Source: Candidatus Magasanikiibacteriota bacterium | GTDB taxonomy: Bacteria > Patescibacteriota > Patescibacteriia > Magasanikbacterales > JACTTX01 | DNA length: 57,551 nucleotides | Assembly (NCBI GenBank): GCA_015661005.1 | Contig: JACTTX010000006.1 | Coordinates: 1 to 57,551, forward strand | Direction: 5' to 3' | Shown: in pieces, positions 3,471-45,950 of the stretch | How positions within the stretch are numbered: the first letter of the stretch is position 1 | Layout of the letters: each line of letters begins with the position of its first letter | The notes under the pieces: model-generated | The model's database searches: none | What the model was told of the DNA's origin: nothing | Seen by the model: the letters and a program-made list of their open reading frames with translations, nothing else | Made by a program: the position numbers and the translations under genes

Positions 3471-3489
3471 AAAGAATATGAAATGTTAA

Positions 3490-3544
3490 CAGTAAAGTGA
3501 AAATAGCGTGTTCTTCAATCAAGAACGCTATTTGCACTTTACTG
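3490..3544. repeat. Nested palindromic REP/MITE-like element, copy 1 (core variant A)
   Basis: CAGTAAAGTGAAAATAGCGTGTTCTTCAATCAAGAACGCTATTTGCACTTTACTG. It shares the core AAAT(A/G)(G/T)CGTGTTCT.CAATCAAGAACG....ATTT with the other copies. Confidence 0.8.
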
Positions 3545-4444
3545 TCACTTTAACACTGATAATGTTAAGGCTAAAAGACCTTGATGCGCCAGATGTTCGT
3601 CAAGGTTGGCATAGATCTGGACGCCATCGCGCAGTGCCGGAATGACGCGGCGGGAAATTTCTTCGCGCAAGGTTTTTTCAAATCGCGAAAAGGCGCGAGC
3701 CACACCGCCGGTTAGGAGCACATGGGACGGATTGACGGCCCAAATAATATTGCTCACGGCAAAACCGATTTTATGTCCGACCCAATCCCACAATTCTTGA
3801 GCGCGGGGATCTACCGAGTTAAACAAATCTTTGCCGTCACGCACCATAAGCCCGAGCGCCTGCGCTTGCGAAACCAAATCTTTCCAACCGACGTAACGTT
3901 CAAGACAGCCGCGATTGCCACAGCCGCAAGCCGGACCGTCAGCATCAATGCTCATATGGCCGAATTCGCCGGCCGAGGAAGTGACGCCTGTCACCATTGT
4001 ACCATTGATGAGCATGCCGCCACCCACCCCGGTGCCTAAGGTGAAACCGACAAACGGCGTTTTGGGAGATCCCGCCGCTCTCCAGCCGCCAAAAATGGCG
4101 GCGGTGGAATCATTGGTCATTATAAACGGCAAATCAGTAAGCCCTTCCAAAGAAACATTTTCCAATTCAAGAGCGACGCTTTTCAAAATTGTTTTTTCTT
4201 TGCTCGGACCAGGCACGGCAATCGCGACCTGATCAAAAGAAAAGCTTCCGCCTCCCGTCGTTTCTGAAAAACTTTTTCCACGCATCTCTTCAATGATCCC
4301 TCTAAGTTGCGGCAAAAAAGCGTCGCCTTTTTTTGTCGGCGCGCTTCCTGAAGAGATTACTGCGCCGTTTTGATCCAGCACGGCGTATTTAATTGTCGTT
4401 CCGCCCGCGTCAATCGTGAGAACCATATGCGGAAACGGTAACAA
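3545..4444 (-). CDS. ROK-family sugar kinase
   Basis: N-terminal LTIDAGGTTIKYAVLD and ROK signature GEFGHMSIDADGPACGCGNRGCLERY. Confidence 0.8.
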   Translation of the reverse strand: MLPFPHMVLTIDAGGTTIKYAVLDQNGAVISSGSAPTKKGDAFLPQLRGIIEEMRGKSFSETTGGGSFSFDQVAIAVPGPSKEKTILKSVALELENVSLEGLTDLPFIMTNDSTAAIFGGWRAAGSPKTPFVGFTLGTGVGGGMLINGTMVTGVTSSAGEFGHMSIDADGPACGCGNRGCLERYVGWKDLVSQAQALGLMVRDGKDLFNSVDPRAQELWDWVGHKIGFAVSNIIWAVNPSHVLLTGGVARAFSRFEKTLREEISRRVIPALRDGVQIYANLDEHLAHQGLLALTLSVLK

Positions 4445-8440: not shown

Positions 8441-8562
8441 GTCCTGGCGACGACCTACTTTCGCGGGACCGGGTTAGGTCCAACTATCATCGGCCCAGAG
8501 CTGCTTAACTGCCGTGTTCGGAATGGGAACGGGTGTGACCAGCTCGGTAGCGCCACCAAGAC
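8441..8562 (-). rRNA. rrf: 5S rRNA
   Basis: The reverse complement contains CCGUUCCCAUUCCGAACACGG and has terminal helix GUCUUGGUGGCG/CGUCGCCAGGAC. Confidence 0.9.
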
Positions 8563-9336: not shown

Positions 9337-9979
9337 CATGTTAATTCCATTATTACTAATGGCATAGACTATATCTTCATCCGTCTCCAAACTAATTTGG
9401 AGGTTAGGAGTTGGCGTATGATTGAAGTTTTAATTCCCGATTATCGGGTACCTTCTATCTCACTCCGAAATTTCGGAGATCAGTCGTTACAGGGACCTTG
9501 CGCAAAAAATTCTTTAACCGTTAAAGAAGTGTTTTTCCTCTTTTTTGAGTAGTTCAATTCTTTAAACCGATCAACTAATTTCCCTATTACCAACAGATTT
9601 TTCTGGCCAAATTTCTCCGGCCATTTCTTTTCTATCTCAAAAGCAACTTTCGCGTGATTTCTCTTAAGGCGTAAATATGGATAGAGCATACGAAGTATCT
9701 CGATCACATAATTTTTGCCAACGATGGTATATTCAGTCATCTCGTCTTTCCGATCTCGGATATATCCGTATCTTTTCTTCTGACGAGTTGAAACATCACA
9801 CAACCATCGCCATCTAAGAAACCCGCAATATATGCCTTTTCTGAATCTGTTAGCATAGCTTATGCAATTGGTCTTCCCACGGTATTACCCAAAAATTCAG
9901 TTCGTTAAATCTTTTGGGTTTCACCGTTATTAGCCAAATTTGTTATAGCATATTCCTATGCTAGAACGCAATGTAAATT
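9337..9979 (-). mobile_element. Group I intron 2 in 23S at GAACGU | CGUGAGACAG (the I-CreI-type site, E. coli about 2593)
   Basis: Exon junction U | intron ... G | CGUGAGAC. It has the GAAGAUAUAGUC core and shares blocks with introns 1 and 3 (GUCGUUAC.GGG, CUUCCCACGGUAUU, CACCGUUAU). Confidence 0.8.
9480..9856 (-). pseudogene. LAGLIDADG homing endonuclease, frameshifted
   Basis: An N-terminal 39-aa frame (9737..9856) holds the motif YIAGFLDGDGCV. The C-terminal 107-aa ORF (9480..9803) is in another frame (ILRMLYPYLRLKRNHAKVAFEI, NYSKKRKNTS). The frames switch at an A-run near 9773-9778. Confidence 0.7.
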
Positions 9980-10012
<33 letters not shown>

Positions 10013-10043
10013 TGGCGAACAGCCAAACCCTTGGGAGCTTCTC

Positions 10044-10084
<41 letters not shown>

Positions 10085-10607
10085 GGGTCGTCGATATGGA
10101 CTCTTGGACCCGATCAGCCTGTTATCCCCAGAGTAACTTTTATCCGTTGAGCTTCCACCATCCTATATTGAATGGTCGGATCACTAACTTCCGCTTTCGC
10201 GACTGCTTGACTTGTAGGTCTTGCAGTAAAGCCGGCTTGTGCGTTTGCGCGTCCAGCCCGGTTTCCATCCGGGCTAAGCCGACCTTTGTAAACGCCTCCG
10301 TTACTTTTTAGGAGGCAACCGCCCCAGTTAAACTACCCGCCAGACACTGTCTCTCACTCCGGATTCACGGAGCGGGATGAGAATGAAAACAACGCAAGGG
10401 TGGTGTCTCATTGGCCCCCGGCTTGCGCCGAGGTCCCACCTACGCTGAACATGCGAAGTTCTCACCCAATATCAAGTTGTAGTAAAGCTTCATGGGGTCT
10501 TTTCGTCTAACCACGGGTAAGAGGCATCTTCACCTCTCTTGCAATTTCGCCGAGTCCCTCGTTGAGAGAGTCGTCAAGTCGTTATGCCATTCGTGCGGGT
10601 CGGAACT

Positions 10608-10873
10608 CCATACTTATTCATTATGTTGCCATAATGTTTAGACTATACCTTCATCTTTCACAATTCGCATGACACGATTTGGTGAAAGAGCCGACGTGTT
10701 GATCATTATTCAATGATCCTCGCCTTGCGGCTAAGTCGTTACGGGGTCACTCCAACATCACGTCAGAGGACTTCCCACGGTATTCCCTCAATGAGGGTTC
10801 ACCGTTATGAGTCGGTTTACTTGTACCACGTTACCGCGATACTCGGGCAAGTGTTTCCCGCATGGAACATTGT
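10608..10873 (-). mobile_element. Group I intron 3 in 23S, ORF-less (site near E. coli about 1951; 5' boundary +/-3 nt)
   Basis: It separates ...GUCGGGU(GA) from AGUUCCGACC. The intron ends in G. It has the AGGUAUAGUC core and is homologous to introns 1 and 2. Confidence 0.7.
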
Positions 10874-10895
10874 TCACCCGACAAGGAATTTCGCT

Positions 10896-11185
10896 CTTCG
10901 TGTTACTCGATTTTAATCGAGACGCCAGATGCGTTCTGCATGTCACCATGCAGTTCGGACTATGTCTTCATCAAATTATTTGACGTTTGGCGTGTAGTCT
11001 CTGAGGGTTATGTAACACAATATTACATTCTTCCCTGCTGATTTTCCGCACCGACAGAATTGTTACTTCGTGTTGAAGTACCTGCGGATACTCGGATGTT
11101 CCAGCATATAGCCAAATTTTCTCTTTACATCTCCGTGGCAACGGAGTTCGAGAGGAGGTCTGTACCTCACTAAGGCAGCAATTCC
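10896..11185 (-). mobile_element. Group I intron 4 in 23S, ORF-less (between AAGGU and AGCGAAAUUCC, E. coli about 1931)
   Basis: The 5' exon ends in U and the intron ends in G (..CACGAAG). Core element GAAGACAUAGUCCG is present. Confidence 0.75.
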
Positions 11186-11199
11186 ACCTTAGGACCGTT

Positions 11200-11980
11200 T
11201 GCTATTGTTACTCTCTGTTTACAACAGAGAGGCGTAGTATTTCTGCTACGCTCTTCATATCGCTATGAAGACCGGACTATATCTTCCCCGGCTACTTTCC
11301 GAGGTCTGACGTATAGTCTCTGAGGATTCTCTCATGGATCAATGAGTAATGCCCATATGAACATTGTGAAGGTCATATTTACGCTTTCGACCGCGCCCTT
11401 CATTGAGAACAGCGCGATATTTCATAATCTCATTAAACCCTTTTGGTTTGTGATGTTCACCCGCAAACATTTTACGAATAATTTTTTGAAAGATCAAAAA
11501 ATTTCGTTTTTTTGTCGCGGAGAAGAAGCGAAACTTTAGAAAAAAAGGAATGATGCGTTCATATAAGGCGCGAATACTCGTCACCTCATAATAAACGACA
11601 CCATCTTTTCTCTCTCGGAGAGTTCCACAACCTAGATACCGCTTCATAACTATTAAGACAGTTTGATCCAGTTGTGAAACATTAAAGCTCGCCGCAAGTT
11701 TCCAACCCATTCTATGATCTGGAACCTTTTTCACGGAAACATTAAAACTACCTTCACCATCGGTGAAGCCAGAAATATACCAACCGATATGCAATGGTAT
11801 TTGTTTCAGCCATTTATTTTTCGACATAGATTTTTAATGCTATGCCTTGAGAGTTTCCTGCGGATTGTCTGCACTTCTGGCATTGTTACTGCTGTCTCGA
11901 GCGGACAGTTAGTAGCCGAAGATACTCCAGAGTTTCCCGCAGATAGTCAGATTTTTTTACGTAACTACAACGGTCAGTTT
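11200..11980 (-). mobile_element. Group I intron 5 in the 23S helix-69 loop (CUAUAA | CGGUCC region, E. coli about 1917; boundaries +/-3 nt)
   Basis: It interrupts CCGUAACUAUAA...ACGGUCCUAAGGU. It contains GGGAAGAUAUAGUCCGG and an intact LAGLIDADG ORF. Confidence 0.75.
11339..11827 (-). CDS. LAGLIDADG homing endonuclease (single-motif, I-CreI-sized, 162 aa)
   Basis: WYISGFTDGEGSFNVSV motif. The ORF lies entirely within intron 5. Confidence 0.85.
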   Translation of the reverse strand: MSKNKWLKQIPLHIGWYISGFTDGEGSFNVSVKKVPDHRMGWKLAASFNVSQLDQTVLIVMKRYLGCGTLRERKDGVVYYEVTSIRALYERIIPFFLKFRFFSATKKRNFLIFQKIIRKMFAGEHHKPKGFNEIMKYRAVLNEGRGRKRKYDLHNVHMGITH

Positions 11981-12771
11981 ATAGTTACGGCCGGCGTTCA
12001 TCAGTGCTTCAGATCAAGGCTACCTCCGACTTGCGCCGGAGTTGACCCATCCCCTTAACATTCTGACACTGGCCAGGCATCAGCCCATATACATCACCTT
12101 ACGGTTTCGCATGGACCTGTGTTTTTGGTAAACAGTCGCTTGACGTCGTCAGCTGCGGCCCTGAAATCTTGCGAAGTCAGGGCAAGGCTTATCCCGAAGT
12201 TACGCCTGCTGTTTTGCCGAGTTCCTAAACGAGGGTTCTCTCGTACACCTTAGTATATTCTACCCACCCACCTGTGTCGGTTTCCGGTACGGTTGCAATG
12301 GTTTCAACGATCGCAGAACTTTTCTGGGCACCAGTTTGACACGAATCGGATCCGTCCGAAGACTTCACCTCTTTCTTGCGAAACGCGAATAACCGAATCG
12401 CGCTCACATCTGGCCAATGCGTCCTTCTGCCATCTCCACCACCACAGTGCAGGAATATTAACCTGCTCTTCCATCGCCTACGCCTTTCGGCCTGAGCTTA
12501 GGATCGACTAACCCTGGGACGATTTGCGTTGCCCAGGAAACCTTGGGTTTACGGTGGACGGGGTTTTCACCCGTCTTTGTGCTACTTATGCCAACATTCT
12601 TTCTTCCGTCCGCTCCACGGGTCCTCGCGGATCCCGCTTCACTGCTGAACGGAATATTCCTCTACCACTTGTTCGCTTGCGCAAACAAATCCGCATCTTC
12701 GGTACTATGTTTAGCCCCGGTACATTTTCGGCGCGCAGCAGCTAGACCAGTGAGCTGTTACGCTTTCTTTA

Positions 12772-12802
<31 letters not shown>

Positions 12803-14461
12803 TTGTCTGCGCCGCGACACCACCTTTCACACTTAACATAGATTTAGGGACCTTAAATTGCGGTCAACGGCTGTTTCCGTTTGGACGATGAAGCTTAGCC
12901 CCCACCGTCTAACTCCCGTGTTGTAATCTCTGGTATTCGGAGTTTGGTTAAAGTCAGCAGGATTGCTCCCCTGACCTCATTCAGTGCTCTACCCCCAGAG
13001 GGATCACACGAGGCCAACCCTAAAGTTGTTTCGAGGAAAACCAGCTATCACCCAGTTCGATTGGAATTTCTCCCCTAACCACAACTCATCCTCTAGTTTT
13101 GCACGGCTAGTAGGTTCGGACCTCCCCTCGTATTTCTACGAGGTTCATCCTGGTCATGGTTAGCTCACCGGGTTTCGGGTCTTGTATGCGTTACCAAAGG
13201 AACATTGAACGTCACGACGTAAATCGCGACATTCAAAATTCCTAAACGCGCTTTCACGCTTGCTTTCACTGCGGCTTCGTCCCGTAAGGACTTAACCTAA
13301 GCAACGCACAGCAAACTCGTTGGCTCATTCTTCAATAGGAATACCGTCACCCAGCAATTTCATCTTGCGATGAAACGCTTGAGCTCCGATTCCTTGTAAG
13401 CGTATGGTTTCAGAAACTATTTCATTGCCCTCACCGGGCTGCTTTTCACCTTTCCCTCATGGTACTTGTTCACTATCGCTTATCAAACGTATTTAGTCTT
13501 GGGACATAGTCGGCCCAACTTCCATCGGGATTTCACGAGTCCCGACGTACTTAAGCGCAGAAACCAGCGAATGAACGCGCGATTTAAAATACCGGGCTCT
13601 CACCGTCTTTGGCGCCGCGTTCCAGCGGACTTCTTCTATCGCGTTTCTCTCGCCGTGCGAATATAGGTTCACACCGTCTCTGACTTATAACGCCGCATCA
13701 GCAACGGCCTACACCTTGGACTGGACATTCCGACCGAATCTTGCGACCCGATTTTCCTGAACAGAACACTGATGCGGTTTAGACTGTTCCCCGTTCGCTC
13801 GCCACTACTAAGGGAATGTTACACGAATTTTTTTCACGACGTTCATGATTCGCGCCGTGAAAAAAATCGTGCGCATTTTTTATTTTCCTCTGGGTACTGA
13901 GATGTTTCACTTCCCCAGGTCTTCCTCACGCCCCTATGAATTCAGTGCGTGATGACGCTGATTATGCATCAACGCCGGGTTTCCCCATTCGGACATCCAC
14001 GGATCACCGATTGCTTGGGATCTCCCCGTGGCTTATCGCACCCTGCAACGTCCTTCGTCGTCGTTTGATAGCTAGGCATCCACCATACGCTCTTGTAGCA
14101 CGTCACTCTAGCACCAAATGGTGCTTTCAGTTTGTGTTGCCTCTTACTTCTTACTCGTTCTTTGAATTGTTAAGGTTCCGGTCTGGTCCGGCGGCTGGCC
14201 GGATCGGCGGGCTCCGTCTGTTCATCGTGTTGGTTGAAACCAGTTCAACTCGCGATCAACACCCAGAGACGCCGCTCCTTAAATTTTTACCACCTTTAGA
14301 AAACAAAAGAACCGCGATCAAGCGGCTCAACAAAACCAACAAAATTGGTCAGGTCCGCTTGCGAATGATGAGTAATTTTTTGCTTTGTGTAAACATTTTT
14401 ACTCGTCAAACCCAGCGGCCCGCCTCCAAATCGTGCGTGGGGCCTCCTTAATTCTTTGCGC

Positions 14462-15619: not shown

Positions 15620-16012
15620 ATGAGCTATTTAGCAAAACAACTTTCATACTGGCGGAAATCTGCTGAAGAAGTTATAAAGACGGCAGATATATTATTCAAA
15701 AGCAATCGTCTTGACGCCTGTCTTTTCTTCTGCCACCTTGCCTTGGAAAAATTGTTGAAAGGTTTGGTAGTACAAAATACTAATGCCCCTGCGCCTCCAC
15801 TTCACGATCTCACAAAACTCGCAGATATAGCGCAAATTGCTTTATCATCAAAGCAAAAACAGGACCTTCGCACAATCACTATTTTTAATATTGCCGGACG
15901 ATATGATGATATAAAATTATCATTCTACAAAAAGTGTACACCATCTTTCACCAAAAAATATTCTGATATTACTAAAACATTAGTCTTATGGCTAAAAAAA
16001 AGCTACCATTGA
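15620..16012 (+). CDS. HEPN-domain protein
   Basis: The helical pattern ACLFFCHLALEKLLKGLV ... AGRYDD is typical of the HEPN partners of minimal nucleotidyltransferases. Confidence 0.7.
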   Translation: MSYLAKQLSYWRKSAEEVIKTADILFKSNRLDACLFFCHLALEKLLKGLVVQNTNAPAPPLHDLTKLADIAQIALSSKQKQDLRTITIFNIAGRYDDIKLSFYKKCTPSFTKKYSDITKTLVLWLKKSYH

Positions 16013-16314
16013 TAGTCAAGAAAAATATTAATGAATACATCGCGGCGCTCAAAAAAGACCGCTTACCAATTGAGCGGGTTATTCTCTTCGGCTCCTATGC
16101 CAAAGGAAAACAGCACCGATGGAGCGACATTGATCTTTGTATTGTCTCTTCAAAATTCAAGGATGCGTGGCGGGCGCTCCAGTATTTGTGGTCAAAACGC
16201 ATTTATGATTCCGGAATAACAATTGAGCCGGTCGGTTTCTCCAAACGTGACTTTAAATATCCGTCGTCGCTGATTGCAGAAATTAAACGAACTGGCATTG
16301 ATATACCAGTCTGA
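15988..16314 (+). CDS. Minimal nucleotidyltransferase (MNT) partner of HEPN
   Basis: Signature LFGSYAKGKQHRWSDIDLCIV (GS...G...SDxD). It overlaps the HEPN gene by 25 nt. Confidence 0.75.
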   Translation: MAKKKLPLIVKKNINEYIAALKKDRLPIERVILFGSYAKGKQHRWSDIDLCIVSSKFKDAWRALQYLWSKRIYDSGITIEPVGFSKRDFKYPSSLIAEIKRTGIDIPV

Positions 16315-16393: not shown

Positions 16394-19300
16394 CTAAATC
16401 CAAAAATAGATTGGCAAGTCATTAGAAAGCGCCGCCGCTTCCGCTTTCCGCGATTTGGCCAACGCGTACTCTGAAGCGAGTGTCGCTTTTTTAATGACGG
16501 CTTCATTCCGTTCAATAAAATTTTTGAGCGCCGCGTCATCAGTCCAGAAATTAACGACGACCGTATCCTTGATGGTGAGGTCATGATCTTTTCGCAAATT
16601 ATTTACAAAGCGGATGATCTCGCGGACTTGTCCTTTTTCTTTTAACGCCGGAGTAATTTTTGTGTCCAGAGTAACTTTGGACTGAAGGCCGCCATCCGAA
16701 ATTTCCACCTCCTCAATATTAACTTCATCTTTGATGAGATCAATGAGCCGCCGGTCCTTAATCTCTCCTCCAACTACCGTGAGCTTGCCCAAAATCTGGC
16801 GCACGGGGATGCTGGCGCGAGCGCGCGCCTCCAGTCCGGCGCTACAGATCTCCCGCACTTTTTGCATTTCTTTGAGAAGTGTTTCATTGATTAATTTTTT
16901 GTTGTGTGTCGGCCATTCGGTCAGATGAACGGATTCACTTTCACCACCAAGCTCAACGTGAATTTTCTCTGCAATAAATGGCGTGAACGGGGCCAAAATT
17001 CTGGCCAAAGTCAGGAGAATATGCCGCAAAGTTTCTTGGGCTTGGTTTTTTTCTGGAACGTCATCGCTTTTGAAACGCGAACGACTGCGCCGCACATACC
17101 AAATGGAGAGATCAGTAATGAACGCACTGATTGGACGCGCGGCGTCTTGAAGCTGGTACGCTTCCATTGCCGTTGTTACTTCTTTAATGAGATTGTTTAG
17201 ACGCGCGATGATCCATTCGTCAAGAATGTTGGTGGAGTTTGACGGGTGGGCCGTGGGGACTCGGGGTAACTCGTCCCGCGACCTCGGACGAAACGGTCGC
17301 GGATCCGAGTTACCCCTGCGTCCCCCGTTCGCGCCCGACGCTTCAAACCCCGCGCCGTACAACTTGTAAAACTCCACCACATTCCAAAGAATCATCAGCG
17401 TTTTTCTCTGCACTTCCTGCACGCCCTTTTCGGAAAAATTCAAATTTTCAGCGGCCATGACTGGCGAGGTCAAAAGATAATAACGCAAAGCGTCTGCGCC
17501 TAACTTTCCGATCACGTCCATCGGGTCCGGATAATTTTTGAGCCGCTTGCTCATTTTGGCGCCGTCTTCAGATAAAACAATCCCATTCACAATCACATTC
17601 AAAAACGCCGGTTGGTCAAAAAGGGCGGCCCCTAAAACCGTCAGCGTGTAAAACCAGCCCCGCGTCTGATCCTGTCCTTCGGCAATAAACTGCGCCGGAA
17701 ACTCGCGGCTGAATTTTTTCTTATCGCCAAACGGCCAATGCCTTTCCGCATAAGGCATGCCGCCGGATTCAAACCAGCAATCCAAGACCTCCGGCACGCG
17801 GCGAAAAATTTTTCCATCGCGTTCAATTAAAATTTTGTCCACAATGTGTTTGTGCAAATCATCAATCTCTTGTCCGGATAATTTTTCCAATTCCTCTCTT
17901 GAACCAATGACAATAATTTCTCCGTCCTCGGCGCGCCAAACCGGCAGGGGCGTGCCCCAATAACGACTGCGGGAAACCGCCCAATCGCGAGCGTCTTCTA
18001 ACCATTTGCCAAAACGGCCTTCCTTGATATGTGTCGGCACCCAATTTATTTTTTTATTGGCGGCGAGCATTTTGTTTTTGATGGCCGTCACTTTAATGAA
18101 CCACGAGCTCGTCAAATAATTCAAAAGCGGCGTGTCACAGCGCCAACAGTGCGGATAGCTGTGCGAATATTTTTCACTGGAAAAAATTTTTTCGCGCTCT
18201 TTCAAATAGACGATGATTTTTTCATCAGTGACTGGCGGATTTTTCTGCGGCTTGACCGGCAAACCTTTAAAATCGGAAACGGCTGAAACAAAATGACCAT
18301 TGGGAAGGACGTGTTGAACCAGAGGAATTTTTTCCCGCTGGCCAATCTGAAAATCATCTTCGCCAAAAGCCGGCGCAATGTGCACAATGCCGGTGCCGTC
18401 GGTTACGGTTACAAAATCACCGGCCACCACGCGGAAAGCATTTGGCGTGTCAGCAAAATAAGGGAAAAGCGGCTCGTATTGCGCGCCAATTAACTCGGCG
18501 CCAAGCGCGGTTGCCACCGGCTTGGGCGGTGTGCCGTCTTTTGTGCCGAAAATATAAATCGCGCGATCTTTTGCCACCCAAAACCAAGCATCATCTTGCG
18601 CGATGGCGACGTATTCAATGTCAGGATTCACCGCCAGAAGCACGTTCCCGGGAAGCGTCCACGGCGTGGTGGTCCAAGCCAAAAAAAATTGAGCCGTGGT
18701 AGACGGCGGGCGCAGGGGTGTCTCGGAGCCGCGACCGTTTCGTCCGAGGTCGCGGGACGAGACACCCCGAGCCCGCACGGAAGATCTGTCAATAATTTTA
18801 AACTTGACCACCACGGCCGTGTCCTCAACGTCTTTGTAGTTTTGCGTTACTTCAAAATTGGAAAGCGGCGTTTCGCATCTAGTGCAGATGTGCATGGATT
18901 TTTTTCCTTCATAAACCAAACCCCGTTCGTGCAATGTCTTGAACACCGCCCAAAGCGATTCCATATACTCTGGGTCCATTGTTTTGTAATCGCGCTCCAT
19001 ATCAACCCAGCGGCCAAGGCGATGGATAACTTTTTTCCACTCACTGGCGTATTTCAAAACCGTGGCGCGGCACGATTCGCAAAATTTTTCCACGCCGTGA
19101 TCCTCAATGTCTTTTTTGGAAACCAGTCCCAATTCTTTTTCAATTAAATTTTCAATCGGCAAACCGTGGCAGTCCCAACCCCAACGCCGTTCCACGCGGT
19201 ATCCTTTCATTGTCCAGTATCGCGGCACAACATCTTTCAAGAGCGACGCCACGATGTGTCCGTAATGCGGCAGGCCGGTGGCAAACGGCGGACCGTCGTA

Positions 19301-19414
19301 AAAAACGTACGGCTTCCCAGCCGGTCTTTGCGACACGGATTTTTCAAATGTTTTTTCTTGATCCCATTTGGCCAGAATCTCCTCTTCCATTTTTGGAAAA
19401 TCAAAGGCGGGCAT
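16394..19414 (-). CDS. ileS: Isoleucine--tRNA ligase (type 2), carrying two in-frame palindrome insertions
   Basis: PPFATGLPHYGH (HIGH motif), AWTTTPWTLPGN, KMSKRL (KMSKS motif). The ORF is continuous over 1006 aa. Confidence 0.9.
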   Translation of the reverse strand: MPAFDFPKMEEEILAKWDQEKTFEKSVSQRPAGKPYVFYDGPPFATGLPHYGHIVASLLKDVVPRYWTMKGYRVERRWGWDCHGLPIENLIEKELGLVSKKDIEDHGVEKFCESCRATVLKYASEWKKVIHRLGRWVDMERDYKTMDPEYMESLWAVFKTLHERGLVYEGKKSMHICTRCETPLSNFEVTQNYKDVEDTAVVVKFKIIDRSSVRARGVSSRDLGRNGRGSETPLRPPSTTAQFFLAWTTTPWTLPGNVLLAVNPDIEYVAIAQDDAWFWVAKDRAIYIFGTKDGTPPKPVATALGAELIGAQYEPLFPYFADTPNAFRVVAGDFVTVTDGTGIVHIAPAFGEDDFQIGQREKIPLVQHVLPNGHFVSAVSDFKGLPVKPQKNPPVTDEKIIVYLKEREKIFSSEKYSHSYPHCWRCDTPLLNYLTSSWFIKVTAIKNKMLAANKKINWVPTHIKEGRFGKWLEDARDWAVSRSRYWGTPLPVWRAEDGEIIVIGSREELEKLSGQEIDDLHKHIVDKILIERDGKIFRRVPEVLDCWFESGGMPYAERHWPFGDKKKFSREFPAQFIAEGQDQTRGWFYTLTVLGAALFDQPAFLNVIVNGIVLSEDGAKMSKRLKNYPDPMDVIGKLGADALRYYLLTSPVMAAENLNFSEKGVQEVQRKTLMILWNVVEFYKLYGAGFEASGANGGRRGNSDPRPFRPRSRDELPRVPTAHPSNSTNILDEWIIARLNNLIKEVTTAMEAYQLQDAARPISAFITDLSIWYVRRSRSRFKSDDVPEKNQAQETLRHILLTLARILAPFTPFIAEKIHVELGGESESVHLTEWPTHNKKLINETLLKEMQKVREICSAGLEARARASIPVRQILGKLTVVGGEIKDRRLIDLIKDEVNIEEVEISDGGLQSKVTLDTKITPALKEKGQVREIIRFVNNLRKDHDLTIKDTVVVNFWTDDAALKNFIERNEAVIKKATLASEYALAKSRKAEAAALSNDLPIYFWI
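17255..17325. repeat. GC-rich 71-bp palindromic element, copy A, inside ileS
   Basis: GGGGACTCGGGGTAACTCGTCCCGCGACC-TCGGACGAAAC-GGTCGCGGATCCGAGTTACCCCTGCGTCCCC. It is translated as ..GGRRGNSDPRPFRPRSRDELPRVP.. Confidence 0.85.
18706..18776. repeat. GC-rich 71-bp palindromic element, copy B (inverted relative to A), inside ileS
   Basis: Its reverse complement aligns with copy A over the full length, with paired (compensatory) differences in both arms. It is translated as ..RARGVSSRDLGRNGRGSETPLRP.. Confidence 0.85.
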
Positions 19415-21025: not shown

Positions 21026-21121
21026 ATTGCAAATAGCGAACGGAGAGGCGCCAATAGCGTGTTTGATAGGATCATGCCCTTCCAAGACAATAGTAATGCG
21101 CAAATGACGTTCTTGTCTCAT

Positions 21122-21189
21122 GGTGAATAGTAATCGGCAAATGTCGTGTTGCTTAGAACAAGAACGACATTTGCCGATTACTATTCACC
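21122..21189. repeat. Nested palindromic REP/MITE-like element, copy 2 (core variant B)
   Basis: GGTGAATAGTAATCGGCAAATGTCGTGTTGCTTAGAACAAGAACGACATTTGCCGATTACTATTCACC. Confidence 0.85.
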
Positions 21190-21286
21190 ATACACGTCAT
21201 TTACGCTTCACTCTTTGATGACATTGTCATTGGCAACTCACTGTTCTGTTCGTCTGTCCAGTTGTCCCTTTGCCCCACTATTTCTT

Positions 21287-27115: not shown

Positions 27116-28057
27116 ATGCTCGTTCCCTCCGCTCCCCTCCTCATCCGCGCCCGCAAAAACGGTTACGCCGTGCCGGCGTTCAACATCAATAATCTGGAAA
27201 TCGCCCAAGCCGTTTTGGAAACTGCGGCGGAAATGCGCTCACCGGTCATTCTGCAAACATCAGAAGGCGCGATTGACTACGCCGGTATGGATTATTTGGC
27301 GGCCATCGCACACACCGGCAGCCGACTCTTAAAAATTCCGGTGGCTTTTCACCTTGATCACGGAACAAATGTCGCGCTCGTGGAAAAAGCGATTGCGTCC
27401 GGACTTTACACCAGTGTCATGATTGACGGTTCGCGATTGCCGTTGGCGGAAAATATAAAACTCACCCGCCGGATTGTGGAGCTGGCGCACCGCCAAAAAA
27501 TTTCCGTGGAAGCGGAACTCGGAGCCATTCCCGGCGTTGAAGATAAACTTTCCGTGACGGAACGGGAAGCGTATTTCACAGACCCGGAACAAGCGGAAAA
27601 ATTTGTGCAGGAGACAAAATGCGACGCGCTCGCCATTGCCGTCGGCACGGCTCATGGCGCTTACAAATCAACCGGCGCCGCCATTTTGGATTTGGCGCGG
27701 CTTAAAAAAATTGCCGCTCTCGTCAAAATTCCGTTGGTGCTTCACGGCGCGTCCGGCGTTTCTCAAAAAATTCTGGACACCGCCCATCAGGGTTGTGAGC
27801 GGTTGGGCGATTGTGAACGATTGGAAGGCGCGACCGGCATCCCGAACAATCAAATCAAAGCGGCCGTCAAAAACGGCATCGCCAAAATAAACATTGACAC
27901 GGATTTGCGGATCGCTTTCACGGCCGGCATCCGCGCCGCGCTGATTAAAGACCGTCACGTTTTTGATCCCAGAAAAATTTTAGGCCCGGCTAAGGAGTTG
28001 ATGAAAAAAGTCGTCAAAGAAAAAATCGCGCTTTTTGGCGCGAAAGAAAAAGTTTAA
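27116..28057 (+). CDS. fba: Class II fructose/tagatose-bisphosphate aldolase
   Basis: AFNINNLE, PVILQTSEGA, HLDHG, GTAHGAYK and LVLHGASG. Confidence 0.85.
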   Translation: MLVPSAPLLIRARKNGYAVPAFNINNLEIAQAVLETAAEMRSPVILQTSEGAIDYAGMDYLAAIAHTGSRLLKIPVAFHLDHGTNVALVEKAIASGLYTSVMIDGSRLPLAENIKLTRRIVELAHRQKISVEAELGAIPGVEDKLSVTEREAYFTDPEQAEKFVQETKCDALAIAVGTAHGAYKSTGAAILDLARLKKIAALVKIPLVLHGASGVSQKILDTAHQGCERLGDCERLEGATGIPNNQIKAAVKNGIAKINIDTDLRIAFTAGIRAALIKDRHVFDPRKILGPAKELMKKVVKEKIALFGAKEKV

Positions 28058-28121
28058 AAAAAGTAGCCGACAAATGTCGTGTTTCTTAGAACAAGAACGA
28101 CATTTACCGGCTACTTTTTTT
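28055..28121. repeat. Nested palindromic REP/MITE-like element, copy 3 (core variant B); probably a bidirectional terminator
   Basis: AAAAAAAGTAGCCGACAAATGTCGTGTTTCTTAGAACAAGAACGACATTTACCGGCTACTTTTTTTT. It lies between convergent genes. Confidence 0.8.
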
Positions 28122-41297: not shown

Positions 41298-41425
41298 GTG
41301 ACTGGCGAATGAAAGGGTGCAAATGTCGTGTTCTCCAATCAAGAACGCCATTTGCACCCTTTCATTCGCCAGTCACTGTAGCGTTCTTGTTCTTAAGAAA
41401 CACGACATTTGCCGGTAACTATTCA
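41298..41425. repeat. Composite REP/MITE-like locus: full palindrome 4a (41298-41376, variant A) plus half-element 4b (41377-41425, variant B, reversed)
   Basis: 4a is GGTGACTGGCGAATGAAAGGGTGCAAATGTCGTGTTCTCCAATCAAGAACGCCATTTGCACCCTTTCATTCGCCAGTCAC. 4b is ..GCGTTCTTGTTCTTAAGAAACACGACATTTGCCGGTAACTATTC. Confidence 0.85.
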
Positions 41426-41471
41426 ACTCCGACTTCCAGTCTCCAGCTTTCAGCTTCATTCCCCAACCTCT

Positions 41472-42209
41472 ATGCCACTTACTGAAAAACAAAACAATCT
41501 CCACCGCGGCGCTTTCATCGCGCTTTGCTTTCTTGCTTTCACCTTTTCCCTCCTGCCCTCTTCCACCTCCGCCGCCGGACTTCTGCCAACACCCACCGGC
41601 CGTTGCCGTGAGGATTATGCGAGCGCCAATCCAACGGCCAACACCTGCAAAGCCGGAAAATGCGCTGACGGCAAGGATTGCGATTATGCCTTGAACGATT
41701 TCAAATCATTGATCGCGGTGATTGGAAATTATATCCTTGGCATTTCCGGTTCCATTGTGCTTTTGATGTTTATTTATGGCGGACTGACGTGGTTGCTATC
41801 CGCGGGCTCGGCGGAAAAAATTGGCAAAGGAAAAAAAATCATCTTTGGATCAAGCATTGGGCTCATTCTGATTTTTGGCGCCGTTACCTTGATCCGCGTT
41901 GTACTGCAATCAGTGGGCGCGCCGGAAGAATTTCAACAACAGGTGATTGGCGGCGGAGCGGGCGCCAAACCCGCGGCGCCAACACCAACGTTTGCCTGTT
42001 GCGTTACGAAAAATAAAATTACGGAATTGACCGGCAATCAGGCCTGCACCGGCGGAAAAAAATACAATGATCTCCACTGCGATGGTATTGTCTGTTGTCG
42101 TCCGCCGTCAGGCCCGCCGGAAGTCATTCCTGAAAATGAATGCGCGATTGAAGGATCTACAAAAACCGACTTTGACGGATCGCCGGCTTTCGTACAAAAT
42201 TGCAAATAA
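41472..42209 (+). CDS. TrbC/VirB2-like (T4SS-type) pilin paralogue with Cys-rich N- and C-terminal extensions
   Basis: Signal/TM segment, then core GSIVLLMFIYGGLTWLLSAGSAEKIGKGKKIIFGSSIGLILIFGAV. The C-terminal tail contains 7 Cys. Confidence 0.65.
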   Translation: MPLTEKQNNLHRGAFIALCFLAFTFSLLPSSTSAAGLLPTPTGRCREDYASANPTANTCKAGKCADGKDCDYALNDFKSLIAVIGNYILGISGSIVLLMFIYGGLTWLLSAGSAEKIGKGKKIIFGSSIGLILIFGAVTLIRVVLQSVGAPEEFQQQVIGGGAGAKPAAPTPTFACCVTKNKITELTGNQACTGGKKYNDLHCDGIVCCRPPSGPPEVIPENECAIEGSTKTDFDGSPAFVQNCK

Positions 42210-42261
42210 ATCTACGCGGATCTGGTATAATGTGAGAAACATCTCTACGCTTCAGTGAAAT

Positions 42262-42867
42262 ATGATGAAACATTCTTTAGCCATAATCGCATTTTTCTTT
42301 GGCATTGCCCTGTTATTGCCGTTATCTTATGCCGAAGCCGGGTGCTGTCTTAATATCAACGACACAACCTGCGAGACGTCTGTTGAGAGTGTTTGCAAGT
42401 CAAAAGGTTTTAATTTTCTTTACAACGCTAACACATGTGAAGAGGCAGCTTGGACAATTGTGAAAAACAATTATGTCTGTCCGACGTCATCTCCACCCCC
42501 ACCACCAACTTCACCACCACCCCCACCACCAACTTCACCACCAACTCCAAAACCCACTGGTGGCGGTTCGTCCGGGGGAGGCACCAGCGCCAGCGGCGCT
42601 GTCACGCTGACCGACCCTTTAAATCTTGGAGACACACCAATCCCAACACTTGTCGGCCGCGTCATTAAAGCATTGCTTGGCGTCATTGGCGCGCTCGCGC
42701 TTCTGATGTTTGTCTATGGCGGCTTCCTGTGGATGACATCTTTCGGTAATAATGAGAAAATAAAGGAGGGGAAAAACATTGTCATCTGGACAACCATTGG
42801 CATCACCACCATCTTTGCGAGCTATGCCTTGGTTTCATTTGTGATTGAAGGATTGACCACCAAGTAG
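42262..42867 (+). CDS. TrbC/VirB2-like pilin paralogue with Cys-rich head and Pro-rich linker
   Basis: Signal peptide. Six Cys in the first 70 residues. Linker SSPPPPPTSPPPPPPTSPPTPKPTGGGSSGGG. Core LLMFVYGGFLWMTSFGNNEKIKEGK. Confidence 0.65.
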   Translation: MMKHSLAIIAFFFGIALLLPLSYAEAGCCLNINDTTCETSVESVCKSKGFNFLYNANTCEEAAWTIVKNNYVCPTSSPPPPPTSPPPPPPTSPPTPKPTGGGSSGGGTSASGAVTLTDPLNLGDTPIPTLVGRVIKALLGVIGALALLMFVYGGFLWMTSFGNNEKIKEGKNIVIWTTIGITTIFASYALVSFVIEGLTTK

Positions 42868-42918
42868 ATTCATTAATTTACTAACTATGCACATTAAAAC
42901 ACGAAAGGAGGTGAGAAT

Positions 42919-43267
42919 ATGAACGCATTAACTCTTAAAAAGTTTGGCGCGGTGGCCGCTTCAACTGCCGTTTTGGCTTTGGGCGTAATCACTCCGGCCT
43001 TGGCGCAGGTTGGCGGAACCACAGATGAACAGGGCTCGCTCGGACTCGGGACAATTCAAACCGAAGCCGGCTTTGGCCAAAAAAATCTTTACGCCACCGT
43101 CGGCTCGCTGATCAGAGTGGCGCTGTCTCTTCTGCGATGCCAAGAAACTCTTGATCGCCGGTGTCATTGGTATGCTGATCATTCTCTCGGCCTTTGCCAT
43201 CACCACGTTCGTTCTTGGGTCTTTGCAAAAAGCTACAGGCGCGGGCTTCACCGTTCCTGGCGCATAA
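42919..43267 (+). pseudogene. TrbC/VirB2-like pilin paralogue with internal deletion and frameshift
   Basis: N-terminal frame reads ..LYATVGSLIRVALSLL. From about 43135 a second frame reads DAKKLLIAGVIGMLIILSAFAITTFVLGSL..GA*. The central (L/F)(V/I)YGG(F/L).WM..-..EK segment shared by the paralogues is missing. Confidence 0.65.
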
Positions 43268-43295
43268 TGACGAGGCCTCGTCACTATGGTATACT
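43267..43295 (+). promoter_or_regulatory. Candidate extended -10 promoter
   Basis: ATGACG, 17-nt spacer, then TATACT preceded by TGG (TGnTATACT). Confidence 0.45.
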
Positions 43296-43458
43296 AACAA
43301 GCAGGTTAATCCCCTGCTTGTTTAATTCTAGGACTGATGCGTTTGGCGAACTGCTTCGTCAAAATCTGTGCTACTCGCTCTGTGTATTCCAAATACACGT
43401 CGCTCCGTTGCTCGGTTTTTCCTCGCATTTCATCCAAACGCATCAGTCCTAAAATACT
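43296..43458 (+). ncRNA. Structured 5' leader upstream of pilin gene 43459
   Basis: Hairpin AACAAGCAGG-ttaatcc-CCTGCTTGTT (43296-43322). Perfect 18-nt inverted repeat TAGGACTGATGCGTTTGG / CCAAACGCATCAGTCCTA (43329-43346 / 43434-43451) enclosing inner hairpin GTGTATT-cca-AATACAC. Confidence 0.45.
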
Positions 43459-43878
43459 ATGAAACTTTTAAGGTGGCTATTCGCAATCACTTTTGGCCTG
43501 CAAATTTTGACAGCCATTCCGGTATTGGCGGCTGATGCGGCCAATGATTATGGTTTGGGAACAGCCGCCGCCGGGGCCGGCATTATAAAAAATAAAGAGG
43601 ATGCCACCAAAGGCGGCGCGGGATTGGCGGAGCTTTCCGGCCGGGTGATTCGCGCCGCTCTCACCATCATTGGCGTCGTGTTTCTTTTGCTTATGGTCTA
43701 TGGCGGATTTATCTGGATGATCGCGCGGGGAGATAAAGAAAAAGTTAAAGAAGGCCGCGATACCATTGTGAACGCCACTATTGGATTGGTACTGGTTTTG
43801 GCCGCTTACGCCATCACCCAGTTCATCTTCACTTCATTTGTTGCCAACGTAGTGAGCGGCGGCCCGGCCGCGCCGTAA
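43459..43878 (+). CDS. TrbC/VirB2-like pilin paralogue
   Basis: Signal peptide and core VFLLLMVYGGFIWMIARGDKEKVKEGR...GLVLVLAAYAITQF. Confidence 0.7.
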   Translation: MKLLRWLFAITFGLQILTAIPVLAADAANDYGLGTAAAGAGIIKNKEDATKGGAGLAELSGRVIRAALTIIGVVFLLLMVYGGFIWMIARGDKEKVKEGRDTIVNATIGLVLVLAAYAITQFIFTSFVANVVSGGPAAP

Positions 43879-43879
43879 T

Positions 43880-44224
43880 ATGGCTGATCCTCTTGCTCAA
43901 GCGACGCCGGGCGCCTACCAAGCGTCCGCAGAAAATCTTAAAACCGCGGGCAACTTTATTTTTGGAACCGAAGCGACTAAACTTGACTTGGCGACCCTTG
44001 TGGGTAACTTGATTCGCGCGGCTCTGCTCCTTCTTGGTATAATCTTTTTGGGGTTGATTGTTTACGCCGGATATCTCTGGATGACCGCCGCCGGCCAAGA
44101 AGAAAAAATCACGGAAGCTAAAAAGACCCTGATTCGCGCGAGCATTGGCATGGCCATTGTGCTCGGTTCCTACGCCATAACTAACTTTGTCATTAGCGGC
44201 CTCATTGAGGCCACAATTAAATAA
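43880..44224 (+). CDS. TrbC/VirB2-like pilin paralogue
   Basis: Core IFLGLIVYAGYLWMTAAGQEEKITEAKK...GMAIVLGSYAITNF. Confidence 0.7.
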   Translation: MADPLAQATPGAYQASAENLKTAGNFIFGTEATKLDLATLVGNLIRAALLLLGIIFLGLIVYAGYLWMTAAGQEEKITEAKKTLIRASIGMAIVLGSYAITNFVISGLIEATIK

Positions 44225-44232
44225 ACAATTCT

Positions 44233-44625
44233 ATGAAACTAAGTCACACGATTATTAAATGGGGATCGGTCATTGGCGTGGGAGGAATGATGTTGTTGTC
44301 TGGAATTACGGCGCATGCGCAGACGCTGGAAGCTGACATCACAGGTCAGCTCGGGGCAGTCCAATCAAAGACCGGGCTTGGCGATACACCTCTGGCAGAG
44401 ACAATCGGCTCCATCATTAGAGCCGCTTTGACGCTTCTTGGCGTTATTCTCATTGTTCTTATTGTTTACGCCGGTTTTCTTTGGATGACGGCCGCCGGGG
44501 AATCGGAAAAAATTGAATCGGCAAAAAAAATACTGAAAGGCGCCATTATTGGCATGGCCATTACCCTTTCGGCCTACGCGCTTACAAACTTCGTGGTTAC
44601 CAACCTCGTGAAAGCAACAGCTTAA
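44233..44625 (+). CDS. TrbC/VirB2-like pilin paralogue
   Basis: Signal peptide and core LIVLIVYAGFLWMTAAGESEKIESAKK...GMAITLSAYALTNF. Confidence 0.7.
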   Translation: MKLSHTIIKWGSVIGVGGMMLLSGITAHAQTLEADITGQLGAVQSKTGLGDTPLAETIGSIIRAALTLLGVILIVLIVYAGFLWMTAAGESEKIESAKKILKGAIIGMAITLSAYALTNFVVTNLVKATA

Positions 44626-45823: not shown

Positions 45824-45950
45824 GGTGATCGGCGAATGGAAGGGCGCAAATATCGTTCTTGATTGGAGAACACGATATTTGTACCCTTCCATTCGCCGAT
45901 CACTGTGATGTTCTTGTTCTAAGCAACACGACATTTGCCGTTCACTGTTC
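45824..45950. repeat. Composite REP/MITE-like locus: palindrome 5a (45824-45903, variant A, apex inverted relative to 4a) plus half-element 5b (45904-45950)
   Basis: 5a is GGTGATCGGCGAATGGAAGGGCGCAAATATCGTTCTTGATTGGAGAACACGATATTTGTACCCTTCCATTCGCCGATCAC. 5b is ..GATGTTCTTGTTCTAAGCAACACGACATTTGCCGTTCACTGTTC. Confidence 0.85.

What the first reader, a model, noticed from the sequence alone, without database searches (positions are those of the whole stretch)
17255..18776. Two copies of a 71-bp GC-rich palindrome inserted in frame and in opposite orientation within ileS
Copy A (17255-17325) and the reverse complement of copy B (18706-18776) align end to end around an identical core (CTCGTCCCGCGACCTCGGACGAAACGGTCGCGG).

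Where they differ, the differences are paired across the hairpin arms:
- GGGGTAACTCG/CGAGTTACCCC against GGGGTGTCTCG/CGAGACACCCC;
- outer GGGGAC/GTCCCC against GCGGGC/GCCCGC.

This indicates that the hairpin itself is under selection.

Both copies sit in an essential gene whose frame stays open. Each adds about 24 Arg/Pro/Gly-rich residues at positions that are short variable loops in other IleRS enzymes: just before AWTTTPWTLP, and just before the ..LDEWII.. helix.

This parallels the Rickettsia palindromic elements that colonise coding sequences. I am not aware of it being described for CPR-type genomes. Both copies seen in the window are in the same gene.
Basis: partly seen in the sequence, partly recalled or inferred. 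Interest (0 to 1): 0.8.

Follow-up and report, generated by a model that had tools for sequence, protein, structure and literature searches.

The report
In-frame hairpin repeats inside ileS

Summary
ileS (16394-19414, minus strand, 1006 aa) holds two 78-nt copies of one element, at 17251-17328 and 18703-18780, in opposite orientations. They share a 33-nt identical core, and 8 of their 9 differences form 4 compensated stem pairs.

Each copy is a clean 26-codon insertion in a loop that is short in 119 CPR orthologues and in solved IleRS structures. AlphaFold gives pLDDT below 50 for 224-231, within the first element-coded segment (residues 212-238), and for 692-722, which covers all of the second (696-722).

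Three more family members turned up in metagenome contigs: one in frame inside ychF, two intergenic (rpoA-rplQ, and after rplA). Their middle stems covary, and 8 of 27 pairs across the five copies show double changes.

The element is nearly stop-free in all six frames. An AT-richer hairpin family in the same window is full of stops and purely intergenic.

Best reading: a non-autonomous, REP/MITE-like hairpin repeat that persists in genes only where it stays in frame in a surface loop, analogous to Rickettsia palindromic elements but not related to them. Unrelated hairpins occupy the same IleRS and YchF loops in other CPR genomes, so the habit looks widespread.

Mobility mechanism, transcription and translation are inferred, not shown. 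No description for CPR was found in the paper library.

The parts
16394..19414 (-). ileS, type-2 (eukaryote-like) isoleucyl-tRNA synthetase, 1006 aa. It would be 955 aa without the two elements.
   Evidence: ORF and translation. Best homologues are Candidatus Magasanikbacteria / Patescibacteria IleRS at 53-56% identity. Foldseek top hits are IleRS structures 8Z1P and 8C8V. The gene minus the elements is 2865 nt (955 codons) at GC 0.48.
17251..17328 (+). Copy A of the 78-nt hairpin element, antisense to ileS. It spans codons 696-722 and encodes GGRRGNSDPRPFRPRSRDELPRVPT. GC 0.69.
   Evidence: Alignment with copy B, fold at -64/-66 kcal/mol, covariance-model hit of 93 bits, frame R2 open, pLDDT below 50 for residues 692-722, and +26 aa relative to 8C8U.
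18703..18780 (-). Copy B of the element, in the sense orientation of ileS. It spans codons 212-238 and encodes VRARGVSSRDLGRNGRGSETPLRPP. GC 0.76. All six frames are open.
   Evidence: 98 bits. pLDDT is below 50 for 224-231 and residues 215-240 are coil. The equivalent position in 8C8U is a one-residue beta-turn at 215-217.
17275..17302 (+). Apical stem-loop of copy A: stem CCGCGACC/GGTCGCGG (preceded by an extra C at 17275 that pairs only in the metagenome copies) with the 11-nt loop TCGGACGAAAC (17284-17294). It is invariant in all five family members.
   Evidence: Note that 21 of these nucleotides were required by the search pattern, so only the 7 flanking invariant positions are independent evidence of conservation.
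18729..18756 (-). Apical stem-loop of copy B, same sequence as in copy A, on the minus strand (loop 18737-18747).

Best explanation
The two sequences are copies of a small, non-coding, hairpin-forming repeat (REP/MITE-like selfish DNA) that circulates in Magasanikbacteria-like CPR genomes.

The element is about 78 nt and 70-75% GC in a 49% GC genome. It is one long imperfect hairpin with conserved basal motifs (GGGCTCGG ... CCTGCGCCC), a variable middle stem that stays paired, and a conserved apical stem-loop.

It lands, or is copied, in either orientation, both between genes and within them. Because it is almost free of stop codons in all six frames and its length is a multiple of three, insertions that fall in a surface loop of a protein do not break the gene and escape purifying selection.

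In ileS, one copy lies at a beta-turn of the CP1 editing domain, just before the WTTTPWT motif. The other lies in the linker before the anticodon-binding helical domain. Each is translated into a disordered 26-residue Arg/Pro/Gly/Ser-rich loop that the enzyme tolerates.

Shown: repeat family, hairpin, covariation, clean 26-codon insertions, loop location, predicted disorder, genic and intergenic members.

Inferred: mobility and its mechanism, which is presumably an enzyme acting in trans on the hairpin and is not identified. Also inferred: that the inserts are transcribed and translated, and that they are neutral passengers rather than functional.
For: 1. Repeat family. The window holds two copies. 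Three further members occur in two other metagenomes: L002 between rpoA and rplQ, L003 in frame inside ychF, and L005 after rplA.
2. Hairpin maintained. Of 27 pairs, 8 show double changes, 92.6% of cells are paired against 30-47% when the partner is slid, and 0 of 500 shuffles reach the covariation score. A and B differ by 4 compensated pairs plus 1 bulge base.
3. Foreign composition. The elements are GC 0.69 and 0.76; ileS without them is 0.48.
4. Clean insertions in loops, absent from 119 orthologues. They are sized at +26 aa against solved IleRS2, and the AlphaFold2 (AF2) segments with pLDDT below 50 coincide with the inserts.
5. Coding tolerance. The element has 4-6 of 6 frames open. A same-sized AT-richer hairpin family in the window has 0-2 of 6 open, and all 6 of its copies are intergenic.
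6. All three genic copies keep the host frame, using three different element frames (F2, R2, R1). A conserved peptide is therefore not what is kept.
7. No Rfam family matches, even at E up to 10.
8. The same loops of IleRS and YchF in other CPR genomes carry unrelated hairpins in frame: L010, L011, L014, L012, L013 and L015.
9. In-frame palindromic elements are an established phenomenon in Rickettsia (review PMC10969869).
Against: - Only five copies are known, and the genome-wide copy number is unknown. Scans of 185,579 species-representative genomes gave only a chance hit.
- No empty-site / filled-site pair from close relatives is available, because the nearest IleRS is 56% identical. Insertion is therefore inferred from distant orthologues, and mobility is not demonstrated.
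- There is no consistent target-site duplication. CCGT flanks both window copies but none of the other three.
- No matching autonomous element or Y1/RAYT-type transposase lies in the 57 kb. The single IS110-family transposase shares no more k-mers with the element than chance.
- Both window copies falling in one 3-kb gene is mildly improbable, roughly 0.05 for random placement of two copies in 57 kb by my own estimate. This is unexplained beyond a local-hop argument.
- Conservation of the apical loop is largely an ascertainment effect of the search pattern.
- Transcription and translation were not observed.
Confidence: 0.7

Rival explanations
1. The hairpin is a functional cis-acting nucleic-acid structure. 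It could be an RNA element that sets mRNA processing, stability or ribosome pausing (for example an RNase III or other nuclease site, or an operon punctuation signal), or a DNA site bound by a host protein. Its presence in ileS, ychF and ribosomal-protein operons would then be selected rather than parasitic.
For: - Covariation maintains the stem across copies from three samples.
- The basal and apical motifs are conserved.
- All five known sites are in or next to translation or transcription genes: ileS, ychF, rpoA-rplQ, and downstream of rplA.
- Four of the five copies have the same orientation relative to transcription.
Against: - The element occurs in both orientations within one mRNA, so the two ileS transcripts carry different loops.
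- There is no Rfam match.
- 119 orthologues, including the closest ones, do without it, so it is not a conserved regulatory feature of ileS.
- Different, unrelated hairpins occupy the same loops in other lineages. That fits tolerance of a site better than function of a sequence.
- The terminator scan shows no enrichment.
- The bias towards housekeeping genes is expected in genomes of about 1 Mb, and n = 5.
Confidence: 0.12
2. The element is an intervening sequence that never reaches the protein. It would be removed from the mRNA (cut at the hairpin base and religated) or skipped by the ribosome, as in programmed translational bypassing at T4 gene 60 or the GC-rich 'byp' elements of yeast mitochondria (my own knowledge).
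For: - These are very stable GC-rich hairpins inside an essential ORF.
- CPR genomes are known for intervening sequences in rRNA genes, and this window has a group I intron and a LAGLIDADG ORF in its 23S gene.
- Removing exactly 78 nt restores a loop length typical of orthologues.
Against: - All three genic copies have a length that is a multiple of three and an open frame in the reading frame used. Removal or bypass would not require this. The odds are roughly 1/3 per independent copy for length, and about 0.44 in all for openness, computed.
- No ribozyme or intron model matches.
- There is no take-off / landing codon pair or stop codon at the 5' edge, as bypass elements have (read from the sequence).
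- At 78 nt it is too small for group I or II introns.
Confidence: 0.07
3. The segments are native, lineage-specific protein loops with a function, for example extra positively charged tRNA-binding surface. Their palindromy at the DNA level would be secondary.
For: The peptides are Arg-rich and sit on an RNA-binding enzyme, and aaRS enzymes often acquire lineage-specific insertions.
Against: - The two peptides are read from different frames and strands of the same DNA and share no sequence.
- The same DNA occurs intergenically and in ychF in a third frame.
- GC content is 20-27 points above the gene.
- AF2 predicts disorder.
- A search of 1.84 billion protein representatives finds no homologue of the peptide.
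Confidence: 0.03
4. It is an assembly or binning artefact, with repeat-induced chimeric joins inside ileS.
For: Metagenome assemblies can collapse or misjoin at repeats, and the window's exact IleRS is not found on any other contig.
Against: - All 955 host residues are collinear with orthologues, and both junctions are in frame.
- The two copies differ from each other in a structured way.
- The ychF member was assembled identically in independent JGI and ENA samples.
Confidence: 0.02

Closest known systems
Rickettsia palindromic elements (RPE; Ogata et al. 2000, as summarised in PMC10969869)
   Same: Both are dispersed palindromic repeats found between genes and inside unrelated housekeeping genes. 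Both are inserted in frame, keep the host ORF open, and sit at positions compatible with the protein fold. Both occur in a small-genome, host-dependent bacterium.
   Different: There is no evidence of sequence relatedness. This element is half the size (78 nt against about 100-150 bp). It is GC-rich and a near-perfect hairpin along its whole length. Each RPE family is reported to encode a conserved peptide, whereas this element is read in three different frames in its three genic copies. The host phylum is also different (CPR/Patescibacteria).
Bacterial MITEs that create in-frame fusions (intragenic ERIC/RU elements, Correia, cyanobacterial MITEs; PMC10969869, PMC2759123)
   Same: Both are small, non-autonomous, inverted-repeat elements with occasional in-frame intragenic copies.
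   Different: No consistent target-site duplication and no partner IS with matching ends were found here. The whole element is a hairpin rather than terminal inverted repeats flanking a core.
REP / BIME elements mobilised by RAYT (Y1) transposases (PMC3733652)
   Same: Both are GC-rich imperfect palindromes that are maintained as hairpins and show compensatory variation. A hairpin-recognising enzyme acting in trans is a plausible mobiliser.
   Different: REPs are 20-40 bp, extragenic by definition, carry GTAG or CGTC heads and are usually high-copy. This element is 78 nt, three of its five known copies are intragenic, it has no consistent head motif, and no RAYT gene lies in the window.
GC-rich palindromic clusters and 'byp' bypass elements in yeast mitochondrial genes; T4 gene 60 (my own knowledge, not checked in the library)
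   Same: Both are mobile GC-rich hairpins inside essential coding sequences of an AT-richer genome.
   Different: Those elements interrupt the frame and are skipped by the ribosome. Here the frame is continuous and open, so no bypass is needed.

Membership tests
Rickettsia palindromic elements (RPE) | A dispersed, multi-copy palindromic repeat present both in and between genes | tested here: met
   Five members are known: 2 in ileS, 1 in ychF and 2 intergenic. The genome-wide copy number is unknown.
Rickettsia palindromic elements (RPE) | Intragenic copies are in frame and leave the host ORF intact, at positions compatible with the fold | tested here: met
   ORFs intact; 26-aa insertions in loops; pLDDT below 50, coil.
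Rickettsia palindromic elements (RPE) | Sequence homology to one of the RPE families and a conserved element-encoded peptide | tested here: not met
   The conserved-peptide feature fails, because the three genic copies use frames F2, R2 and R1 and give unrelated peptides. Direct DNA comparison with RPE consensus sequences was not possible, as none are held in the tools. The size (78 nt) and host phylum also differ. The element is therefore an analogue, not a member.
Rickettsia palindromic elements (RPE) | The insert is retained in the mRNA and the protein | not testable with these tools
   This needs metatranscriptome or metaproteome data from the source sample.
MITE | Terminal inverted repeats, small size and no coding capacity of its own | tested here: met
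   It is a 78-nt full-length hairpin.
MITE | Target-site duplication of fixed length flanking each copy | tested here: inconclusive
   CCGT directly flanks the palindrome in both window copies but not in L002, L003 or L005. It may be a subfamily-specific end rather than a duplication.
MITE | A cognate autonomous IS with the same ends | tested here: not met
   A Pfam scan of 49 window ORFs found only one IS110-family transposase (53055-54680). Its region shares 18 8-mers with the element, against 22 expected by chance. Only 57 kb of the genome could be examined.
REP/BIME (RAYT-associated) | A 20-40 bp extragenic palindrome with a GTAG or CGTC head | tested here: not met
   The element is 78 nt, three of five copies are intragenic, and the head motifs are inconsistent: CGTG, CGTG, CGTA, AATA and TTTT.
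REP/BIME (RAYT-associated) | A RAYT (Y1 transposase) gene in the genome | tested here: inconclusive
   None lies in the window. The rest of the genome is not available.
Self-splicing intron, ribozyme or other curated RNA family | A match to a curated covariance model | tested here: not met
   Rfam 15 gave nothing at gathering thresholds or at E up to 10, apart from a meaningless miRNA-hairpin hit of 20 bits.
Programmed translational bypass element | An interrupted reading frame with a take-off / landing codon pair and a stop at the 5' edge | tested here: not met
   The frame is continuous and open through both copies.

The most novel reading that the evidence does not exclude
CPR/Patescibacteria genomes may be broadly colonised by many unrelated families of stop-free hairpin repeats that repeatedly settle in frame in the same surface loops of essential proteins. 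Seen here are the IleRS site before the anticodon-binding domain and the YchF loop after the NxDE motif. About 1 in 6 of the 120 YchF homologues sampled carry an extra 10-30 residues there, and 6 of 7 inserts checked at the DNA level are hairpins.

If this is general, hairpin repeats would be a major, so far undescribed source of loop expansion and protein-length variation in a radiation otherwise known for genome reduction. It would also point to an unidentified hairpin-specific mobilisation or maintenance mechanism.
Probability: 0.35. Interest if true: 0.7.

Novelty: new member of a known kind. Interest (0 to 1): 0.5.

Why it matters
[quoted passage not shown] It also occurs in CPR bacteria, here twice in one essential aminoacyl-tRNA synthetase.

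It offers a simple rule for which repeat families can invade genes: stop-free in most frames, a length that is a multiple of three, and a landing site in a surface loop.

It has practical consequences for annotating CPR metagenome-assembled genomes. Odd Arg/Pro/Gly-rich loops, spurious small ORFs and inflated protein lengths may all be repeat-derived. Inverted copies within a gene are also potential assembly and recombination hazards.

If the wider pattern holds, it becomes testable how much CPR protein-loop variation is repeat-derived, and what enzyme moves or maintains these hairpins.

Tried and rejected
- **Genome and viral scans.** An exact-pattern scan of the 185,579-species genome collection gave one hit, a chance match inside a 3-hydroxyacyl-CoA dehydrogenase gene of an Actinomycetota MAG with no palindrome around it. 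A viral-contig scan gave nothing.
- **Metagenome scan.** It gave 5 hits, 2 of which are chance matches in peptide deformylase genes (L004, L006).
- **Peptide searches.** I searched for more genic copies by peptide. A concatenate of all open element frames retrieved only the ychF protein already known. A 40-aa IleRS segment against 1.84 billion representatives gave 0 hits. Short, compositionally biased peptides do not reach significance.
- **Source contig.** An exact look-up of the window's IleRS found no record.
- **P0122.** This apparent close YchF relative turned out to be a protein with a duplicated G domain in a Firmicutes-like conjugative-element context. It is irrelevant.
- **Hammerhead ribozyme.** The loop contains GGACGAAACGGUC, which recalls the hammerhead core, so I considered this. 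There is no CUGAUGA box and no Rfam hit, so I rejected it.
- **IS110 link.** I checked whether the IS110-family element in the window is related to, or targets, the hairpin. Shared k-mers are at chance level.
- **Intragenic terminators.** I checked whether the hairpins act as terminators inside the gene. The scan is not enriched: 7 found against 5.3 expected.
- **Covariance model R1.** It found no diverged copies in the window or in 43 kb of two related CPR loci.
Full report
**1. What is in the sequence**

The ORF 16394-19414 on the minus strand encodes a 1006-aa isoleucyl-tRNA synthetase.
- Its best homologues are IleRS of Candidatus Magasanikbacteria and other Patescibacteria, at only 53-56% identity.
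- The AlphaFold model superposes on type-2 / eukaryote-like IleRS structures 8Z1P, 8C8V and 1ILE.
- The window also has a 23S rRNA gene stretched to 4.2 kb by a group I intron and a LAGLIDADG ORF. The CPR assignment is therefore sound.

Inside ileS, the repeat finder reports the longest inverted pair of the whole 57.5-kb window: 17239-17328 against 18703-18792, 90 nt, 84% complementary.

Aligning copy A (+) with the reverse complement of copy B gives a conserved block of 78 nt (17251-17328 and 18703-18780). It has a 33-nt identical core and only 9 differences. Eight of these are four compensated stem pairs and one is in an internal bulge.

The 25-nt core occurs exactly twice in the window, even with 3 mismatches allowed; 0 are expected. 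Each copy folds on either strand into a long hairpin of -55 to -66 kcal/mol, z about -5.5 to -6.3. The elements are 69% and 76% GC, against 48% for the rest of ileS.

**2. They are insertions, 26 codons each, in loops**

In an alignment with 119 orthologues:
- The stretch around site 1 (before AWTTTPWTLP) is 66 residues here, against a mode of 43-48.
- The stretch around site 2 (before ILDEWII) is 71 residues, against 40-44.
- No orthologue has a homologous peptide.

Against the solved P. megaterium IleRS2 (8C8U):
- Site 1 is a one-residue turn there (215 to 217) and 30 residues here.
- Site 2 has 16 residues there (656 to 673) and 42 here. That is +26, exactly 78 nt.

AlphaFold2, run with a 61-sequence alignment (mean pLDDT 78), gives four segments with pLDDT below 50. 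The two long ones are 224-231 and 692-722. Residues 215-240 and 695-729 have no secondary structure. Low-confidence stretches thus fall inside both element-coded segments (codons 212-238 and 696-722) and cover the second completely. The segments hang between well-predicted elements (E193-207 / E241-248, and H662-694 / H730-751).

**3. It is a family, with genic and intergenic members**

The scan of species-representative genomes gave only a chance match. The metagenome scan gave three real relatives plus two chance matches in def genes.
- In L002 the element exactly fills the rpoA-rplQ spacer.
- In L005 it follows rplA.
- In L003 it sits in frame inside ychF (385 aa against a typical ~355-360).
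- That YchF protein was also assembled in an independent ENA sample. This argues against an assembly artefact for the family.

Across the five copies:
- The apical stem-loop and the basal motifs GGGCTCGG / CCTGCGCCC are conserved.
- The middle stem varies but stays paired. Of 27 pairs, 8 show double changes. 92.6% of cells are paired, against 30-47% when partners are slid. 0 of 500 shuffles reach the covariation score.
- One caveat: 21 nt of the apical part were required by the search pattern, so their invariance is partly an ascertainment effect.
- A covariance model built from the five copies finds nothing more in the window or in two related CPR loci.

**4. Why it can live in genes**

The element has 4-6 of 6 reading frames free of stop codons, and copy B has all six open. 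The three genic copies use three different frames (F2, R2, R1). What is preserved is therefore the DNA, not a peptide.

The same window contains a second hairpin family of similar size and architecture: a conserved inner stem-loop, AAATGTCGTGTTCT..AAGAACGACATTT, with covarying outer stems. It is AT-richer, has 0-2 of 6 frames open, and all six of its copies are intergenic.

The simplest reading is a selection filter. Both kinds of hairpin spread, but only the stop-free one, with a length that is a multiple of three, survives inside ORFs, and only in loops.

**5. The habit is wider than this family**

Other CPR IleRS orthologues carry unrelated hairpins in frame at the same site 2:
- L010 and L011, with ends GTCATCCTGAG ... 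CTCAGAATGAC.
- L014, with a 13-bp GC-rich stem.

In the YchF loop, about 20 of the 120 homologues sampled have an extra 10-30 residues. I checked four at the DNA level besides L003. L012, L013 and L015 are strong hairpins, and L016 is not clearly one. The first examples were chosen because their peptides looked repeat-like, so the 6 of 7 figure is not an unbiased rate.

**6. Mechanism**

The best-supported account is a non-autonomous REP/MITE-like hairpin repeat, tolerated and translated as a disordered loop.

Not shown: how it moves.
- There is no consistent target duplication. CCGT flanks both window copies only.
- There is no partner transposase. Pfam scans of 49 ORFs found only an IS110-family gene, and its region shares no more k-mers with the element than chance.

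The perfect compensation between copies A and B fits selection on a hairpin that an enzyme recognises. It fits equally well templated correction of quasi-palindromes, which is established knowledge.

Both window copies lying in one gene, and being each other's closest relatives, suggests a local duplication or hop. Chance placement is roughly 5% by my estimate.

Rivals:
- A functional RNA or DNA structure.
- RNA-level excision or translational bypass.
- A native functional loop.
- An assembly artefact.

Each is weighed separately among the rival explanations. None is excluded by experiment, but each conflicts with at least two observations.

**7. Comparison with what is known, and novelty**

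Behaviourally this matches Rickettsia palindromic elements and other in-frame MITEs (PMC10969869; PMC2759123). It is not a member of the RPE families. Its size, composition, full-length hairpin and host all differ, and it has no conserved encoded peptide. It fails the REP definition on size and on being extragenic, and it matches no Rfam family.

Eight literature searches found no description of in-frame palindromic repeats in CPR/Patescibacteria. One CPR review mentions only rRNA insertions. Absence from this library is not proof of absence.

**Verdict:** a real feature and a new family of a known kind in a new lineage. Interest is moderate, and would be higher if the wider pattern across CPR proteins is confirmed.

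Noticed in passing
window 3489-3545, 21089-21191, 28056-28121, 41298-41425, 45825-45950, 51973-52041: A second, AT-richer family of long hairpins (74-91 nt, -27 to -63 kcal/mol). It has a conserved inner stem-loop (AAATGTCGTGTTCT..AAGAACGACATTT) and outer stems that differ between copies but stay paired. All six copies are intergenic, and only 0-2 of 6 frames are open. The architecture matches the ileS element. It could be a REP-like or terminator-like repeat family.
   Followed up: partly
L010 12017-12136; L011 12026-12142; L014 2291-2383; L012 3637-3738; L013 932-1048; L015 796-927: Unrelated hairpin elements, several with GTCATCC...GGATGAC-type ends, are inserted in frame at the same IleRS linker loop and the same YchF loop in other CPR genomes. 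About 20 of the 120 YchF homologues sampled have an enlarged loop there.
   Followed up: partly
window 52711-52765 and 53018-53072; 53055-54680; 53-55 kb: An IS110-family transposase ORF (541 aa, weak Transposase_20 hit) lies in a GC-rich block (58-59% against 49%). It is preceded by two 55-nt hairpins (GGCTTGCGGAC...GTCCGCAAGCC) that are reverse complements of each other, 252 nt apart, plus further structured sequence. This could be the element's end or its non-coding guide ('bridge') RNA region. No Rfam hit.
   Followed up: partly
window 9939-14100: The 23S rRNA gene spans 4162 nt against a 2925-nt model. It contains a group I intron (10936-11195) and a LAGLIDADG homing-endonuclease ORF (11339-11827). 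A 5S gene lies at 8442-8560. This is typical of CPR.
   Followed up: no
window 15620-16314: A HEPN and nucleotidyltransferase (MNT) pair, a likely toxin-antitoxin module, lies immediately downstream of the ileS stop. It overlaps itself by 25 nt.
   Followed up: no
window 41409-44625: A tandem array of six small ORFs, five of which match T4SS_pilin (PF18895). The last three (43459-44625) are paralogues sharing a roughly 98-nt repeat at 65-71% identity. One gene contains a 12-nt Pro/Thr-type tandem repeat (42488-42554).
   Followed up: no
window 48617-48716: A separate 31-bp-stem hairpin with a 38-nt loop lies between an AI-2E transporter gene and a 1050-aa ORF that has no Pfam match (48723-51875).
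   Followed up: no
window 18693-18707 (minus strand): The 3' end of copy B (GCCGT) pairs with host sequence (ACGGC) to form a small stem, followed by TCAATTTTTT within the coding sequence. It is a weak terminator-like site created at the junction. The scan as a whole is not above chance.
   Followed up: partly
L009 10001-11518: A 505-aa YchF with a duplicated N-terminal G domain, next to a RepA_N/ParB/ArdA/relaxase block. The context is Firmicutes-like, not CPR.
   Followed up: no
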